Below, piece after piece: positions 1,532-10,679 of a stretch of 16,008 nt of DNA; position 1 is the stretch's first letter, and the number at the start of each line of letters is the position of its first letter. The position numbers and the translations under genes are program-made. The notes under the pieces were generated by a model. That model saw only the letters and a list, made by a program, of their open reading frames with translations, was not told the origin of the DNA and made no database searches. Location: positions 1 through 16,008 of the IMG/VR virus record IMGVR_UViG_2675903413_000007. One strand, given 5' to 3'. Source of the DNA: a virus (taxonomy: Duplodnaviria; Heunggongvirae; Uroviricota; Caudoviricetes).

Positions 1532-1741
1532 TTAATTTGAATACAATGCAATTCTCGAGGACTGAAGTTTCTCGCAATTAAAATTTATCAGTTTTACTTT
1601 CTGCTCTCTGGAAACGCCTGCTTCTTTTTTACCTGAGAGCATTTTTTCGCATTCTGATTTCGTTAGTTTAGATTTTGAATATCTTGTCCAGTTAGTAGGA
1701 GTGCCACCTTCCTTTTCAATAGTGGCGGTAATTTTATACAT
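1532..1741 (-). CDS. ydaC: Rac prophage small protein YdaC-like (DUF1187), 69 aa
   Basis: ORF MYKITATIEKEGGTPTNWTRYSKSKLTKSECEKMLSGKK... in the conserved Rac order between xisR and ralR. Start taken at the internal ATG (1741) that overlaps the ralR stop by 8 nt; the track ORF extends to 1813. Confidence 0.65.
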   Translation of the reverse strand: MYKITATIEKEGGTPTNWTRYSKSKLTKSECEKMLSGKKEAGVSREQKVKLINFNCEKLQSSRIALYSN

Positions 1742-2794: not shown

Positions 2795-3479
2795 TTGCAT
2801 ATTCCTTAGCCCAGCGGGGCAGTGATAATGTCTTAATAGCTGGCCATTCATCGGTATTCAGGCAGTCAGACAGGGTTCGCAGATTGCGGTGATATTCCTG
2901 TTGACCTGCCAGTTTTGCTTCTTCGCCCATCATGAAAATTTCAACCGGATAACGTCCGCATTCAATAGTTGTGCTGGCAACCAGAAAAACGAAAGTTGGC
3001 TGCACTCCAAACTGTGCTTCATAACCGTCACTGTAGAATGCATCCTGAACGTGATAGCGGTAGTCGTAATAAGCGGTTTTGAATCGTTGAATATCCGCCG
3101 TAGTTTTCACGTCCATGATCCAGTGAAATTCAGGGATAATTTTGTCCGGACGGCACCGACACAAAATTCCTGTTTCAGGATCTTCCCAGTAAATTGATGA
3201 TTCAGCGTGTCCGGCGCTTTCAACAAGCCATTGCCCCAGCGGCAAAGCCATAACGCTTTGATACATGAGTTCAATTTTCCGGCCTTCTTCCGCAGTGATA
3301 ACCGTTTTTCCTGTGCTTGCGCATTCCATCAGAAACGCTTTCTCTTCTTCTTTTCCGGCGTTTGTACGGCGGTTAAATTCAGGTGCTACGATAAAGCGGT
3401 TACTGAATTCTTCCGGTTCAAGTACGGGAAGATGCTCCAGAGTGGCTTCGCTCTTTATTTTTTGTAACTGTCCTCGATA
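2787..3479 (-). pseudogene. recE: 5'-truncated recE (exonuclease VIII) remnant: C-terminal ~230 codons only, no start codon
   Basis: The minus-strand frame is open from the stop at 3512-3510 down to 2787 and translates to ...[54 protein letters not shown]...[15 protein letters not shown], which matches the RecE C-terminal nuclease domain. Full RecE is ~866 aa. The homology and GC-rich composition stop near 3480, where the AT-rich island begins. The only in-frame Met is at 3329. Confidence 0.85.
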
Positions 3480-3484
3480 ATTTT

Positions 3485-4264
3485 TTGTACATTGATGGTG
3501 ATAGCCGCATTACGAATGATGAGAACAAGCCGTTGGGTATTAAGGCTTTGATCGAGCGACTTTGCGCAGAGAATGGTCAAGAAACAGATCATGAGGATTT
3601 CGATTCATGGTACTGCTATGATGCTTTGAAAGCGCGTTTGCAACATATGCGTTGGTTTCAATTTTATGATGCTGTTGAGATTATCGGAGATCTATTAAGA
3701 AAAAGAGATGTAGAAAGAGGCCATACTTGGGGTAAGAAGGCATTAGAAGACATTACTTTTACATCATATCGTCAGAAATTGAACGAGTTATTCGCATCTC
3801 GAAATATTGACTGGAAAATGAATTCTGCTGGTAGGTTAGAAACACCACTACCAAATGAATTAGAACAAAAAATCGATGAAACTAACAACTTATTGCAAGA
3901 CCAGTTTGAACCTGCAAGGAGGCACTATGTGAAAGCCCGGGCTTTTGCATTAGGTGCGCATAAGGATCCAGAAAATTCCATAAAAGAATCAATAAGTGCA
4001 ATAGAAAGCATGTGTCGGACTTATTATCCTTCAGCCTCAACCTTGGGCGATGTATTAAAACTGATGAGAAAAGAAAACACTATCTCACCTATGCTTTTAA
4101 CGGTGATAGAGAAATTTTACGCTTATACAAATGCAGAGCCAGCAGTAAGACATGGTAGCAACAAGGTTTCTTCTGTCTTGGAATACGATGCTGAATTCGT
4201 GTTGCATATATCAGCAGCATTTATTAGAACAATAATACAAAGAAAAGCTGTTTTGGATAACTAA
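3485..4264 (+). CDS. Hypothetical protein, 259 aa as drawn; start uncertain (TTG, no RBS); possible Abi/HEPN-like C-terminal module
   Basis: Long AT-rich ORF beginning exactly at the recE junction. The first codon is TTG with no Shine-Dalgarno, and the frame is open upstream to 3407 inside the recE remnant, so the native N-terminus may be lost. Predicted helical protein; the C-terminal segment ...[31 protein letters not shown]... loosely resembles abortive-infection C-terminal (HEPN-type) modules. The similarity is weak and unverified. Confidence 0.5.
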
Positions 4265-4504: not shown

Positions 4505-5731
4505 TTAAAATATATATTTTATATCAACCCAATTTTTAGCATTATTGTCAACTAAAGTAACGCTATGTCCATGACTTGAATTTATAGCATCGATTACTGA
4601 TTGTGATGGGTGTCCATGTGAATGACCATCCGACTGAGCTATAAACAAAACATTATCAAAATCCGCAATTATTTTTTGATTGAAATTTAATTCCGAACCA
4701 TGATGAGGTAATGTCATCACCCTTACCGTTTTAATCACTTTTGAATAGAATTCAGCCCATTTATTATAATACAATGATGTATTAAGCTTTGAGTCACCTG
4801 TTAATAAAACAGATCTAATTCCTTTATCTCTATCAAAGAGAAAATGTCGCTCAACCCGACTATTTCTAAAACTAAACCACTCACGAGAAGGCTCATTAAC
4901 AATTTTCATCTCAGCTTCTTGATTATTAATAATCAAGAGATTGATTGATATTACATTATGATCGCCAGCAAGTTTTAAATAACACTCGCGTAATTTCTTT
5001 CTTTCCCCCGTGCTAGTTAATATTTTAAGCATTTTTTTCTTACTTAACTCAGTAAAACCATTTTCTATTAACTGCTGACTGAAAATTTCAATTTTCTTAC
5101 GTGAACGGGGCGGTATCCAAGAAATAAATGACATTAGTGTATCAGTTTTGTTTTCCCCAATCCTTTTAACCAACCAACGGTTACATTCAACATCTCCTTT
5201 GGAGTCAGATATTTTCATTGGTAAGCTTACAGCGCTACCCTTAATGTTTTCACTATTAAATATAGGAGGGTCAAAATTATCATCAATATCACTGGGGTAA
5301 AGCAAAGATATATCTGCCTCAGGCAACCTTGATTTTATCCATTTGACAGGATCAATGAGAAATTCCATAAAAAGACCTGACGTAGAATTAGAGCATAGCT
5401 CCGATGCAATTAAGTAATAGCTATCATGGATATCTAGGTATGGTAATACAACCTTGCGTATTTTGTTATCTACAAGCTGACATAAATGGTCAAATCCATT
5501 TATATGGTCTGAATCCAAATGAGAGATGTATACCACATCAATATATTTCTCATCAATATTAAAGAGAGATTTAGCCACATCCATCTCCCTACGCAACGCA
5601 TTTAATTGGTCACTTCCGCAGTCATACACATAACTGTAAAGCAAACTACCATCCCTTCCCCTCAGTCCGCCTAAACTAAATCCACCCTGGCCAACGGGAA
5701 ACAATCTTTTATGAAATACTTCTCCGCTCAT
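4505..5731 (-). CDS. Standalone ComEC/Rec2-type metallo-beta-lactamase-fold hydrolase (predicted nuclease), 408 aa
   Basis: ATG at 5731 is preceded by AAGAAGGA about 7 nt upstream. Ordered MBL motifs are visible: FPVGQGGFSL near the N-terminus, YDCGSD, ISHLDSDHINGF (HxDxDH variant, as in ComEC ISHADQDH), LPHHGSELN (ComEC HHGS motif) and SDGHSHGHPS (C-terminal GHP). A ~250-aa insertion lies between motif 2 and the HHGS motif. There are no transmembrane competence-channel segments. Very AT-rich. Confidence 0.75.
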   Translation of the reverse strand: MSGEVFHKRLFPVGQGGFSLGGLRGRDGSLLYSYVYDCGSDQLNALRREMDVAKSLFNIDEKYIDVVYISHLDSDHINGFDHLCQLVDNKIRKVVLPYLDIHDSYYLIASELCSNSTSGLFMEFLIDPVKWIKSRLPEADISLLYPSDIDDNFDPPIFNSENIKGSAVSLPMKISDSKGDVECNRWLVKRIGENKTDTLMSFISWIPPRSRKKIEIFSQQLIENGFTELSKKKMLKILTSTGERKKLRECYLKLAGDHNVISINLLIINNQEAEMKIVNEPSREWFSFRNSRVERHFLFDRDKGIRSVLLTGDSKLNTSLYYNKWAEFYSKVIKTVRVMTLPHHGSELNFNQKIIADFDNVLFIAQSDGHSHGHPSQSVIDAINSSHGHSVTLVDNNAKNWVDIKYIF

Positions 5732-6445
5732 ATATCCTTCTTACACCCTAACGTGATCATAAAATTGTCTTAAAGTTAAGTTTAAAGCTAAAAAGTCACA
5801 GCTCATTCCAACTCGTGAGCAATAGGAATGTATATTCAATCAGTTAGAGGATCAACCCGATTTTCTCTAATGAGATTTCGCAACGCAGTACGAACAGCAG
5901 CTACTTCTGCCATCTCATTAACAACCACACTGGACTACAATCCCCTAAGTTCTACAGACTGTAACCATATCCTCTTCACAGAAATAATCTGATTAATGCT
6001 GAAGGTCATCTTTCTCGACGCGAATGTATGACATAACAACCTCAGTTAATTATCTTTCGATAGAAAAATACCTTCACAAAAGGTTTAAGCAACCCATCAC
6101 AAGACAACACGCTAAGCTTGCCTTGTAAGCGTCCTGCTTAACCGAACAGTTCGCTTTCAGAGGATCTCCGGAGAACAGCTCCGATGCCTTATAAGGCCAA
6201 TGCTCGCTCCTCGCTCACTGCGGACCTAAGGTTTGGTCAGCTTGTTCGCACTCTGCCAAAAGCGGGAGTTACTCCCATTCGGTGTTAATCAATGTAGAGC
6301 AGATCAATCAACGACAAAGAAAATGAGAGGCATATCACTACTCATATGAAAATTATTGTAGTAAAGTGAGCCGTAAGTTCATCATTTATAAATCATATAG
6401 CATATATGTTATATCAATTTTAATTTAAATGGCAGAATAATTACC

Positions 6446-7150
6446 ATGGAAAAAATTAAAGCTCCTTGTCCATATTGTAAAGGTGAAAAAAATTGCCACA
6501 TAATAGGCCATAAAAAAAGAGAATGGAGTGAGGATGATGGGGGCAACTATTTTTGGGCTGAAAGTGAATACAAATTATTAGAGTGTATGGGGTGCGACGG
6601 AATATTTACATATATTAAATCCCGTCACAGTGAAGATTACGACATTGAAAGAGATGAGTCAGGCTATGATTGTATGGTATATAACTATCATATATCAACA
6701 TATCCCACTCAAGAGCAAGAAGAGATTAGACCAACTTGGTTTGGTGAGATATTAAACAAAGATCGTCAGCTGTATGTAATAATGAACGAAATGTACATCG
6801 CATTTCAAAATAAATCATTCATTTTAGCGGCGATTGGACTTAGAACTATTTTTGACAGAACAGTTGAGGTTCTAAATATTCATCCAGGATATACATTAGG
6901 CCAGAAGGTTGACATTCTTAAAGAGGAAGGTTTTATTGGGGAAACAGAAAGGAGCCAACTTAAAATTGTAACCGAAGCTGGCAACTCAGCTGCACACAGG
7001 ACATGGGCACCGAACGAAACTGAATTTAAATCGCTTTTGGTAATTATAGAAAATTTTGTAATGCGAACAATACTAAAAAATGAGGATATATTTAAGATTA
7101 CAGAAAAATTACCTGCGAAATATCCAAGACCTCCCAAAAAGCAAGAATAA
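6446..7150 (+). CDS. Zn-ribbon + DUF4145-like (HEPN-superfamily) protein, 234 aa
   Basis: The N-terminus has CPYC...(35 aa)...CMGC, a CxxC-CxxC zinc ribbon. The C-terminal ~100 aa contain AAIGLRTIFDRTVEVL and the motif TEAGNSAAHRTW, which matches the conserved GNxAAH signature of DUF4145 domains as I recall it. AT-rich; divergent from the MBL gene. Confidence 0.7.
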   Translation: MEKIKAPCPYCKGEKNCHIIGHKKREWSEDDGGNYFWAESEYKLLECMGCDGIFTYIKSRHSEDYDIERDESGYDCMVYNYHISTYPTQEQEEIRPTWFGEILNKDRQLYVIMNEMYIAFQNKSFILAAIGLRTIFDRTVEVLNIHPGYTLGQKVDILKEEGFIGETERSQLKIVTEAGNSAAHRTWAPNETEFKSLLVIIENFVMRTILKNEDIFKITEKLPAKYPRPPKKQE

Positions 7151-7559
7151 TGTACGTAAGTGTAAATAGAGCTAAGAGATTATATATTGACTCTGGTTAT
7201 CTCTATTAGCACATGCTTTTTGTAATGCCTTAACTGATTATTTAAACTCCTGTCAGCTTTTCGCTCAAAGCGGACTAAAGTGTTGGCTTGTGACTGACTT
7301 AGCGCATTTAAGGAAGTGGTGGTGGTGACGGGGTGTTGTGTCCCATTTCCACAGAATAAATCAGAGAAACTATAGCGGCTGTAATGGCAATCTATGGTCT
7401 TGCTATTGCTCTTATGGATCACCTTTCTGATTGATTTCATATTGGCGAGGTAACGGGAGTTAAGTAGAATAGCTGCGGGTGCTTGAGGCTGTCTGCCTCG
7501 GGCATGAACACCAAAGGCAGATAGAGAAAAGCCCCAGTTAACATTACGCGTCCGGCAAG

Positions 7560-7640
7560 ACGCTTAACATTAATCTGAGGCCACATCTATGCTTTGCATA
7601 CGTAGATTAGCCTCTTACCGACCAAAAGGTCAAGGAGAAG
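7560..7640 (-). ncRNA. sok: Expected Sok-type antisense RNA opposite the mok/hok leader (position approximate)
   Basis: Inferred from hok-family locus architecture only; no promoter or terminator for it was pinned down in the sequence. Confidence 0.25.
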
Positions 7641-7837
7641 CAGGCTATGAAGCAGCAAAAGGCGATGTTAATCACCCTGATCGTCATCTGTTTAACCGTT
7701 ATAGTGACGGTACTGGTAACGAGGAAAGACCTCTGCGAGGTACGAATCCGAACCGACCAGACGGAGGTCGCTGTCTTCACAGCTTACGAACTTGGGGAGT
7801 AAGAGGACCAGCGGGGAGAAATCCCCGCAACCTCTGA
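7589..7837 (+). CDS. mok: Mok-type overlapping reading frame (modulator of killing) of the hok locus
   Basis: An 82-codon ORF in a different frame that starts upstream of hok and fully overlaps it, which is the canonical mok arrangement. Confidence 0.5.
   Translation: MLCIRRLASYRPKGQGEAGYEAAKGDVNHPDRHLFNRYSDGTGNEERPLRGTNPNRPDGGRCLHSLRTWGVRGPAGRNPRNL
7647..7802 (+). CDS. hokD: Hok-family type I toxin (HokD/RelF-like membrane peptide), 51 aa
   Basis: ATG at 7647 with AAGGAGA about 10 nt upstream. Translation MKQQKAMLITLIVICLTVIVTVLVTRKDLCEVRIRTDQTEVAVFTAYELGE is near-identical to E. coli HokD/RelF and Gef/HokC as recalled. It has a single transmembrane helix and the conserved Cys. Confidence 0.9.
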   Translation: MKQQKAMLITLIVICLTVIVTVLVTRKDLCEVRIRTDQTEVAVFTAYELGE

Positions 7838-10147: not shown

Positions 10148-10679
10148 GGGCTGGTTTATTGTATGCCAAATGATTATTAAAAAGGTTGTGTTAATAACAA
10201 AATCCGAAATAATATGCCTGCATATTTTTATCTTGCTTATATTCTGCATATTGTGCATAGCAGGCTCATCCCTGCAATCAAAACTGTATGATGAGTATTT
10301 TTTGTTTTCCTTTTTTCCAGTCATCTGATGATGACCTGCTTCTTTTTAATCCGGATCGACATCAGTTTTTTAAGATAATTCCTGCGAGTTATATGCATAA
10401 ATACCACAAACTCCGCATTTTATGTGGTTGGGAGTTGCCGGGCGCGCAGTGAGTTTGCTAAGAAAACTCCTGCATGGTGAATCCCCCTGTGCGGTGGGGT
10501 GATACCATTAACCTTTTCTGTCGCCGACAGGTATCACGAACATTTTGTTCACCGGGAGGCACCCGGCACCATGCACTTCAATAGATTCTCTCCACATTAT
10601 GGATATTCTTTCAGAATATCCCACGCAGACTTTGTGTAAATGTTAACAAATGTGCGTTTTATTTGATCTGATTCGCTGT

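What the first reader, a model, noticed from the sequence alone, without database searches (positions are those of the whole stretch)
6446..7150. Zn-ribbon fused to a DUF4145/HEPN-like domain
An N-terminal CxxC...CxxC zinc ribbon, a likely nucleic-acid-binding module, is joined to a C-terminal domain with the GNxAAH-type signature (TEAGNSAAH) that I associate with DUF4145. That HEPN-superfamily domain recurs in abortive-infection and restriction-modification-associated proteins. The gene is AT-rich and divergently arranged from the MBL hydrolase across a long non-coding spacer, so it may be a sensor or effector partner or an independent single-gene system.
Basis: partly seen in the sequence, partly recalled or inferred. 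Interest (0 to 1): 0.7.

Follow-up and report, generated by a model that had tools for sequence, protein, structure and literature searches.

The report
Prophage zinc-ribbon HEPN defence RNase candidate
This AT-rich prophage gene encodes a zinc-binding sensor-like domain fused to a HEPN (RNase-type) domain; it is a distant, differently wired relative of the recently solved anti-phage protein RAZR (PD-T7-4) and most likely a stand-alone abortive-infection defence gene.

Summary

The gene is under purifying selection (dN/dS 0.12-0.17). It belongs to a large full-length family: 2,723 clusters at 50% identity.

It moves as a roughly 1-kb single-gene cassette between accessory slots of temperate elements: Rac-like, e14-like, two P2 moron loci, prophage ends and a conjugative element. 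It has no constant partner, so it does not depend on the neighbouring MBL hydrolase.

The closest known system is PD-T7-4/RAZR (Nature 2026), a Cys4 zinc finger plus DUF4145/HEPN RNase that phage ring proteins activate. Homology runs the whole length through bridging sequences (hhalign 99.3%).

This clade is nevertheless distinct. PADLOC's PD-T7-4 model misses it (0 of 148 representatives). Its zinc domain is larger. The arginine eight residues before the catalytic histidine, essential in RAZR, is T/V/I here.

Verdict: a real, probably defensive gene and a new variant of a known kind. Interest is moderate. Function is inferred, not shown.

The parts
6250..6445 (+). Conserved AT-rich 5' flank that travels with the gene; presumed own promoter and leader.
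   Evidence: Similarity among the Rac-like (window), e14-like (L003) and P2-like (L004) copies begins at about window 6250 and runs to the ATG. The consensus scan found no sigma-70-like site here, so promoter function is inferred.
6446..7150 (+). Coding sequence of the 234-aa Zn-ribbon-DUF4145/HEPN protein (WP_029798703.1 in strain S40).
   Evidence: dN/dS is 0.12-0.17. It matches phrog_1305 at E 9.6e-30 over the full length.
6446..6700 (+). N-terminal beta-rich Cys4 domain (residues 1-85), a zinc-ribbon-like putative sensor.
6467..6478 (+). First CxxC knuckle (C8-P-Y-C11).
6584..6595 (+). Second CxxC knuckle (C47-M-G-C50), within the conserved ECxGC motif.
6701..6760 (+). Interdomain linker (residues 86-105) with near-invariant P87, P96 and W98.
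   Evidence: RAZR's linker is likewise conserved and functionally required (PMC13017515).
6761..7075 (+). DUF4145/HEPN helical domain (residues 106-210).
6842..6844 (+). R133 codon, in the IGLRT..D motif. It is the only near-invariant Arg shared with the PD-T7-4-like clade apart from R185.
   Evidence: Present in 179/180 members and invariant in A2 and A5.
6971..6997 (+). T176-E-A-G-N-S-A-A-H184 motif. H184 (nt 6995-6997) is the presumed catalytic His. Position H-8 is Thr rather than the Arg found in RAZR-type sequences.
   Evidence: H184 is 180/180. Position 176 is T/V/I and never R. R185 is 97%. P0031 and P0180 carry R at H-8.
7076..7147 (+). C-terminal helix plus basic tail carrying the conserved 'LPxK..RP' motif (P223 98%).
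   Evidence: hhalign aligns this tail with that of P0031.
7151..7265 (+). Conserved 3' flank of the cassette. A hairpin followed by a U-run is a possible terminator.
   Evidence: Three-way alignment. The fold is not better than shuffles, z -0.86, and the terminator scan found nothing here, so this is weak.

Best explanation
The gene is a self-contained, horizontally mobile accessory gene ('moron') of temperate phages and other mobile elements. It most likely encodes a single-protein abortive-infection defence of the RAZR/PD-T7-4 type.

Proposed mechanism, inferred by homology:
- The protein sits in the cell as an inactive dimer or oligomer.
- Its variable Cys4 beta-domain recognises a protein made by an infecting phage. 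In RAZR these triggers are large ring assemblies such as the portal or an Erf-like recombinase.
- Binding re-orients the HEPN domains so that a composite active site forms around H184.
- The enzyme then cuts single-stranded RNA indiscriminately, translation stops, and the infected cell fails to release phage.

Shown here: the domain architecture, the HEPN fold, the conservation pattern, purifying selection, the single-gene mobility and whole-length homology to PD-T7-4-like sequences.

Inferred: the defence phenotype, RNase activity, the nature of the trigger and the oligomeric activation. Because the Arg eight residues before the His is missing, the catalytic arrangement must differ in detail from RAZR.
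For: Architecture and fold:
- DUF4145 is above Pfam's cutoff.
- Four Cys are conserved, and the N-terminal domain is all beta.

Homology to a proven defence protein:
- RAZR/PD-T7-4 is described as an N-terminal Cys4 zinc ribbon plus a C-terminal DUF4145/HEPN. It acts by abortive infection, it is not toxic alone, its ZFD is the specificity determinant, and it is a nonspecific ssRNA RNase.
- The bridging proteins P0031 and P0180 match this family's profile. P0031 has E 1.8e-9 against 5.8e9 sequences, and hhalign gives 99.3% and E 1.7e-20 over 211 columns.
- The same two proteins match PADLOC's PD-T7-4 model at E 2.4e-9 and 7e-8.

Shared behaviour with RAZR: the zinc domain is the most variable part and the linker is conserved.

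Single-gene cassette in accessory or defence slots:
- P2 G-FI (fun/Z) locus in L004. Vassallo 2022 calls this a second P2 defence hotspot.
- P2 S-V slot in L018, L019 and L022.
- e14-like, next to pinE.
- The ends of three different Enterobacter prophages at one chromosomal site.
- A Yersinia conjugative element and an Erwinia islet with SymE.
- Here, a Rac-like islet with a PDC-S32 candidate and an MBL nuclease. In sister genomes an anti-phage dGTPase lies alongside.

The gene is selected: dN/dS is 0.12-0.17.
Against: - No experiment exists on this protein or its clade. No paper in the searched library cites its accessions.
- PADLOC and NCBIfam defence models do not recognise it.
- The Arg equivalent to RAZR R146, whose alanine substitution abolishes RAZR defence, is T/V/I in all 180 sequences examined. 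RNase activity therefore cannot simply be assumed.
- The RAZR sequence itself could not be obtained, so residue equivalence rests on PD-T7-4-like intermediates.
- No relative was found in 50,697 isolated phage genomes. The element is known only from integrated or predicted prophages and other mobile elements.
- The N-terminal domain has no significant structural match to a named zinc ribbon.
Confidence: 0.68

Rival explanations
1. The protein is one component of a multi-gene system with the divergently transcribed MBL-fold hydrolase, and perhaps the PDC-S32-like gene, acting as its sensor or effector partner.
For: The three AT-rich genes lie side by side in nine complete E. coli genomes. The MBL protein has defence-type similarities to LmuA, Avs1a and RTasMBL models.
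Against: The DUF4145 gene recurs without either neighbour at 82-91% nucleotide identity in e14-like and P2-like prophages. More distant homologues have wholly different neighbours. Cassette similarity stops about 195 nt upstream of the ATG, well short of the MBL gene.
Confidence: 0.06
2. The protein is a toxin or addiction-type module, or a prophage-maintenance or regulatory RNase, rather than an infection-triggered immune sensor. Examples would be a HEPN toxin held in check by an unrecognised antitoxin RNA or small protein.
For: Many HEPN proteins are toxin-antitoxin toxines in the sense of TA toxins; HepT and the MNT-HEPN toxins are among the structural matches. A hok/sok module lies immediately downstream. 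An unannotated 86-aa ORF lies convergent at 7180..7440.
Against: No conserved adjacent gene or RNA accompanies the cassette across contexts. The 86-aa ORF has no family hit and lies mostly outside the conserved flank. No Rfam match was found in the cassette. The studied relative RAZR is non-toxic on its own even when overproduced.
Confidence: 0.1
3. The HEPN domain is catalytically degenerate because it lacks the canonical Arg. The protein would then act without cleaving RNA, for example as an RNA- or protein-binding regulator, a decoy, or a superinfection-exclusion factor that blocks a phage ring protein stoichiometrically.
For: Position H-8 is never Arg in 180 sequences. In RAZR the corresponding R146A mutation abolishes defence. 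PHROGs labels the family 'DNA binding protein'.
Against: H184 is invariant. R185, W187, P189, R133, D137, K154 and E202 are conserved in more than 90% of members, which is a pattern typical of a maintained active site. HEPN families that keep the His but lack the Arg are on record (Anantharaman 2013).
Confidence: 0.12

Closest known systems
RAZR / PD-T7-4 (E. coli UMB1727; Vassallo et al. 2022 PMC9519451; Zhang et al. Nature 2026 PMC13017515; PADLOC model PDLC04109)
   Same: - About 220-235 aa single protein with an N-terminal Cys4 zinc domain, a conserved linker, a C-terminal DUF4145/HEPN domain and a short tail.
- Invariant catalytic-type His in a GNxAAH-like helix end.
- The zinc domain is the most variable region.
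- Carried on mobile elements.
- Whole-length homology through bridging sequences.
   Different: - Not detected by the PD-T7-4 HMM: the query and 0 of 148 clade representatives hit it.
- The Arg at H-8 (RAZR R146) is replaced by T/V/I.
- The clade motif is D-A-G-[SN]-A-A-A-H-R-G-W-x-P.
- The zinc domain is longer, about 85 aa against about 65 aa, with extra beta strands.
- Trigger, oligomeric state and RNase activity are untested.
DS-38 (DefensePredictor, WP_001313577.1, 366 aa)
   Same: A validated E. coli single-protein defence that combines a zinc finger with a HEPN domain.
   Different: It is a different protein: 366 aa, with a distinct Zn-finger domain according to its authors. It was not recovered among homologues of the window protein.
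Other DUF4145-containing defence proteins: BxaP (PMC10799925), Ishtar1 (bioRxiv 2026.07.06.735840), and DUF4145 fusions to restriction and helicase modules (Anantharaman 2013, PMC3710099)
   Same: They share the DUF4145 branch of the HEPN superfamily and an association with defence.
   Different: Their DUF4145 domain is N-terminal, or is fused to HEAT, beta-domain, REase or helicase modules. None has the N-terminal Cys4 domain.
HEPN toxins of HEPN-MNT (HepT/MntA) toxin-antitoxin systems
   Different: They have a canonical Rx4HxY motif and are neutralised by an adjacent MNT antitoxin. No such partner is present here.

Membership tests
Pfam DUF4145 (PF13643; HEPN/KNTase_C clan) | Score above Pfam's gathering threshold. 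| tested here: met
   43.6 bits against a cutoff of 23.1, E 3.2e-11, residues 115-201 covering model positions 2-87 of 88.
HEPN superfamily | Four-helix up-down bundle fold. | tested here: met
HEPN superfamily | Conserved R-x(4-6)-H catalytic dyad (R-x7-H in RAZR/DUF4145). | tested here: not met
   H184 is invariant, but positions H-4 to H-8 carry no Arg, and T176 is T/V/I in all 180 sequences. Anantharaman 2013 notes that about 20% of DUF4145 members lack the full motif.
RAZR / PD-T7-4 | Match to the family's defence-annotation HMM (PADLOC PDLC04109). | tested here: not met
   The query has no hit at E<=1. 0 of 148 clade representatives hit at E<=0.01. Only the bridging proteins P0031 and P0180 hit.
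RAZR / PD-T7-4 | N-terminal Cys4 zinc domain + linker + C-terminal DUF4145/HEPN in one protein of about 220 aa. | tested here: met
   hhalign to PD-T7-4-like sequences spans both domains, at 99.3%.
RAZR / PD-T7-4 | Catalytic Arg (R146) and His (H154), both required for defence. | tested here: inconclusive
   The His equivalent is present (H184). The Arg equivalent is absent, judged by alignment through P0031 and P0180.
RAZR / PD-T7-4 | Zinc domain resembles RPB9-type zinc ribbons and binds phage ring proteins. | tested here: inconclusive
RAZR / PD-T7-4 | Higher-order oligomer activated by 12/24-mer phage rings; nonspecific ssRNA cleavage; abortive infection. | not testable with these tools
   This needs phage challenge, co-expression toxicity, SEC or cryo-EM, and RNase assays.
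Stand-alone (single-gene) defence system | No conserved partner gene across genomic contexts. | tested here: met
   At least seven different neighbourhoods share only this gene.

The most novel reading that the evidence does not exclude
The window protein represents a large, so far unannotated sister clade of RAZR. At least 150 and probably several hundred clusters at 50% identity fall in it, spread across alpha-, beta- and gamma-proteobacteria. In this clade the HEPN active site has been rebuilt without the canonical Arg: the invariant set is R133, H184, R185 and W187, and R138 is clade-specific. The zinc sensor domain is also enlarged. If so, the clade would use a different catalytic geometry and recognise different phage triggers from the portal or Erf rings that RAZR senses, and current defence-finder models would be missing it systematically.
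Probability: 0.35. Interest if true: 0.6.

Novelty: new variant of a known kind. Interest (0 to 1): 0.42.

Why it matters
If the prediction holds, it extends the recently established RAZR principle to a second, large and currently unannotated clade. In RAZR, immune activation comes from assembly on phage ring structures.

The clade occupies the classic cargo slots of P2-like, lambdoid and e14-like prophages. It also offers a natural test of how essential the canonical HEPN arginine is.

Practically, a family profile could be added to defence-annotation tools. The 1-kb cassette is small enough to test directly.

It also clarifies the makeup of this Rac-type islet. The three AT-rich genes should be treated as separate candidates, not as one operon-like system.

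Tried and rejected
1. Finding RAZR in the solved-structure libraries failed.
   - phmmer with the query, a family profile, and phmmer with P0031 gave only chance hits.
   - No direct comparison with RAZR was therefore possible.
2. Recovering the RAZR or PD-T7-4 sequence from papers failed. The Nature paper has no text supplements held. The Vassallo tables give only accession RRL46918.1. The DefensePredictor tables list only distant 'PD-T7-4-like' entries.
3. I tested whether the window protein is DS-38, the other published ZF-HEPN defence. It is not: DS-38 is WP_001313577.1, 366 aa.
4. Expanding the PD-T7-4-like bridge did little. A homologue search with P0031 added only P0180. An IMG/VR scan with that alignment found nothing.
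5. tblastn against 50,697 isolated phage genomes gave no match.
6. Looking for a promoter, terminator, RNA family or small ORF in the 714-bp spacer and flanks found nothing convincing.
7. A named zinc-ribbon Pfam family for the N-terminal domain was not found. Relatives give only sub-threshold CXXC/Zn-ribbon hints.
8. MBL partnership is rejected on context grounds. Copies lacking one or the other gene in strains E1 and ET490 result from IS insertions, so they are not independent evidence. The e14-like and P2-like copies are.

Full report
**1. The observation**

The window holds an ATG-initiated ORF at 6446..7150 on the plus strand. It encodes 234 residues.
- C8-P-Y-C11 and C47-M-G-C50 in the N-terminal half.
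- T176-EAGNSAA-H184 in the C-terminal half.
- 35% G+C, against 42% for the whole window.
- A divergent arrangement with an MBL-fold gene at 4505..5731 (minus strand), across a 714-bp spacer.

The gene is not a chance ORF. Against two diverged alleles from other prophages (93% and 86% nucleotide identity), dN/dS is 0.17 and 0.15. RefSeq annotates the same protein as WP_029798703.1, 'DUF4145 domain-containing protein'.

**2. Domains**

C-terminal domain:
- Pfam DUF4145 (PF13643, HEPN/KNTase_C clan) matches residues 115-201 at 43.6 bits against a gathering cutoff of 23.1.
- An AlphaFold2 model built on 28 homologues has mean pLDDT 86.7. It shows a beta-rich N-terminal part (residues 1-84) followed by helices at 107-121, 125-142, 151-160, 166-183, 191-209 and 213-221.
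- Foldseek's only credible matches are the same proteins, though at weak E-values.
The HEPN assignment stands.

N-terminal domain:
- Modelled alone, it is confident (pLDDT 91) and all beta, with the two CxxC pairs in loops between long hairpins.
- It has no Pfam family.
- 'Zinc ribbon' is therefore supported by the Cys4 pattern and the beta-hairpin setting, not by a fold match.

**3. The family**

A profile of 14 close homologues was scored against 1.84 billion cluster representatives. It finds 2,723 clusters at E<=1e-3 and 280 at E<=1e-30. Nearly all are 210-260 aa and aligned end to end. Named members come from Cedecea, Alcaligenes and Brucella as well as Enterobacterales.

Conservation in 180 aligned sequences:
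- The four Cys are kept in 93-97%.
- H184 is kept in 100%.
- R133 is kept in 99% and R185 in 97%.
- W187, P189, K154, D137, E202 and the linker residues P87, P96 and W98 are kept in more than 90%.
- The clade motif is D-A-G-[SN]-A-A-A-H-R-G-W-x-P.
- The position eight residues before the His is T, V or I and never Arg.

The Cys4 domain is less conserved than the HEPN domain: 28-50% against 42-66% mean pairwise identity, depending on the sequence set. PHROGs holds the family full-length as phrog_1305, labelled 'DNA binding protein', at E 9.6e-30.

**4. Genomic behaviour**

The window is a Rac-type prophage carrying intR, recT, a recE fragment, RalA/RalR, late genes and trkG. The three AT-rich genes (PDC-S32-like, MBL and DUF4145) occur together in nine complete E. 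coli genomes.

The DUF4145 gene also occurs alone:
- At 91% nucleotide identity next to pinE in an e14-like element.
- At 82% between the tail-fibre assembly and tail-sheath genes of a P2-like prophage. By my knowledge of the P2 map this is the fun/Z position. Vassallo et al. name the fun locus as a second P2 defence hotspot.

Three-way alignments show that what moves is about window 6250-7265: roughly 195 nt of upstream sequence, the gene, and roughly 115 nt downstream.

More distant homologues sit in other settings:
- At the ends of three different prophages (P2-like, lambda-like and P22-like) at one Enterobacter chromosomal site.
- On a Yersinia conjugative element.
- In an Erwinia islet with a SymE toxin.
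- In IMG/VR contigs, between gpS and gpV of P2-like phages.

No neighbour is constant. This is the signature of a single-gene cargo cassette, and it argues against functional dependence on the MBL hydrolase. The copies in strains E1 and ET490 that lack one or the other gene are IS-mediated deletions and do not count as evidence.

**5. What is known**

A full-text search for DUF4145 led to PD-T7-4. It was found in a functional screen of E. coli fosmids, where it was described as 'Zn finger-HEPN'. It has since been renamed RAZR, for ring-activated zinc-finger RNase (Zhang et al., Nature 2026).

Published properties of RAZR:
- It has an N-terminal Cys4 zinc ribbon, a conserved linker and a C-terminal DUF4145/HEPN domain.
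- R146 and H154 are both required for defence.
- It is not toxic alone.
- Its zinc domain binds the T7/T3 portal or an Erf-like recombinase ring, and swapping that domain swaps specificity.
- It assembles as a 24-mer around these rings.
- It then cleaves ssRNA nonspecifically, blocks translation and aborts infection.

**6. Relation to RAZR**

By the available model, the window protein is not a member of PD-T7-4 in the annotation sense:
- PADLOC's PD-T7-4 HMM gives no hit at E<=1.
- None of 148 clade representatives hits it.
- NCBIfam also has nothing.

The two groups are nevertheless homologous over their whole length:
- P0031 matches this family's profile at E 1.8e-9. It also matches PD-T7-4 at E 2.4e-9, over residues 12-190 and across both domains.
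- P0180 matches PD-T7-4 at E 7e-8.
- hhalign between this family and these bridging sequences gives 99.3% probability, E 1.7e-20 and 211 aligned columns, running from the first CxxC to the C-terminal LPxK tail.

Both bridging sequences carry R-F-[MI]-G-N-x-A-A-H, an Arg eight residues before the His, as the paper reports for RAZR (R146/H154). The window clade has T/V/I there.

I could not obtain RAZR's own sequence or coordinates. This equivalence is therefore indirect.

**7. Mechanism**

I think the most likely reading is a stand-alone abortive-infection RNase that works like RAZR. The variable Cys4 domain would sense a phage protein, the HEPN domains would then be brought into an active arrangement around H184, and RNA cleavage would shut down translation.

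Shown:
- The architecture and the HEPN fold.
- The conservation pattern and purifying selection.
- Single-gene mobility through cargo slots.
- Homology to PD-T7-4-like sequences.

Inferred:
- Defence activity and RNase activity.
- The identity of the trigger.
- Oligomeric activation.

The missing Arg means the catalytic details must differ. Candidates to supply a guanidinium are R133 and R185, both also present in the bridging sequences, and R138, which is specific to this clade. Without coordinates or a multimer model I could not test their geometry.

Three rivals remain possible but less likely, for the reasons given under each rival:
- A partner role for the MBL gene.
- A toxin or addiction role.
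- A non-catalytic HEPN.

**8. Novelty and score**

The kind of system is known and has recently been characterised in depth, so the finding is not categorically new. It is more than another copy, though:
- The clade is large.
- Current defence models do not see it.
- Its sensor domain is bigger.
- It lacks a residue that is essential in the characterised relative.

I rate it a new variant of a known kind, with moderate interest (0.42).

Noticed in passing
window 3371/3485..4264 (+): The gene upstream of the MBL matches PADLOC candidate PDC-S32 (E 1e-31) and, weakly, AbiJ_NTD4. In sister genomes it is 297 aa. Here, similarity to those genomes starts only at 3423, so its first roughly 17 codons are replaced and the longest ORF is 259 aa with a TTG start. 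It is possibly inactivated by the deletion junction.
   Followed up: partly
window 4505..5731 (-): This is a 408-aa MBL-fold protein. Its C-terminal third resembles the LmuA, Avs1a and RTasMBL defence models (E 2e-12 to 3e-6), and its N-terminus matches Lactamase_B. It is a separate defence-nuclease candidate with no PHROG match.
   Followed up: partly
window about 3330-3423, compared with L001 and NZ_CP172152.1: The window's Rac prophage lacks about 8.5 kb that strain GF31 and S40-type genomes carry. By inference from the S40 annotation, the missing stretch runs from the rest of recE through sieB, the racR/ydaS/ydaT region and ydaV to an annotated anti-phage dGTPase. In those genomes the dGTPase sits just upstream of the three AT-rich genes, making a four-gene defence islet.
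   Followed up: partly
window 7477..7652 (sok, Rfam 105 bits) and about 7647..7802 (Hok/Gef CDS by homology to L001): A hok/sok type I toxin-antitoxin module lies directly downstream of the cassette.
   Followed up: no
window 1557..1735 (+) and 10442..10628 (+): RalA, the sRNA antitoxin of RalR, matches Rfam at 225 bits. The sRNA STnc100 matches at 87 bits. Both are ordinary Rac and lambdoid features.
   Followed up: no
L002 6372..7076 (E. coli ET490) and protein P0007: A 99.8%-identical allele is out of frame with the window gene over about the first 35 nt, consistent with a frameshift. Only a 158-aa HEPN-only ORF is left annotated. This truncated product is recorded on 122 contigs, so decay of the gene is common in some lineages.
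   Followed up: partly
family members P0042, P0073, P0095, P0096, P0127 and others: Some relatives carry N-terminal extensions of 100-290 aa with extra zinc-ribbon-like hints. One representative hit PADLOC reverse-transcriptase models RT_UG29 and RTasDnaG-like at E 5e-14. The ZnR-HEPN unit may therefore also occur as a fused effector module.
   Followed up: no
window 7112..7147 (residues 223-234): The C-terminal tail motif 'LPxK..RP' (P223 conserved in 98%) is shared with the PD-T7-4-like bridging sequences. Its pLDDT is low (about 60) and its role is unknown.
   Followed up: no
window 6494..6496 (C17): A fifth Cys, C17, is invariant among the Enterobacterales relatives but is C, A or S across the wider family. 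It is probably not a zinc ligand.
   Followed up: no
L018, L019, L022 (IMG/VR) and L004: Members of this one family occupy two different cargo slots of P2-like phages. One lies between gpS and gpV, which by my knowledge of the P2 map is where P2 carries orf30. The other lies between the tail-fibre assembly and sheath genes, where P2 carries fun/Z.
   Followed up: partly
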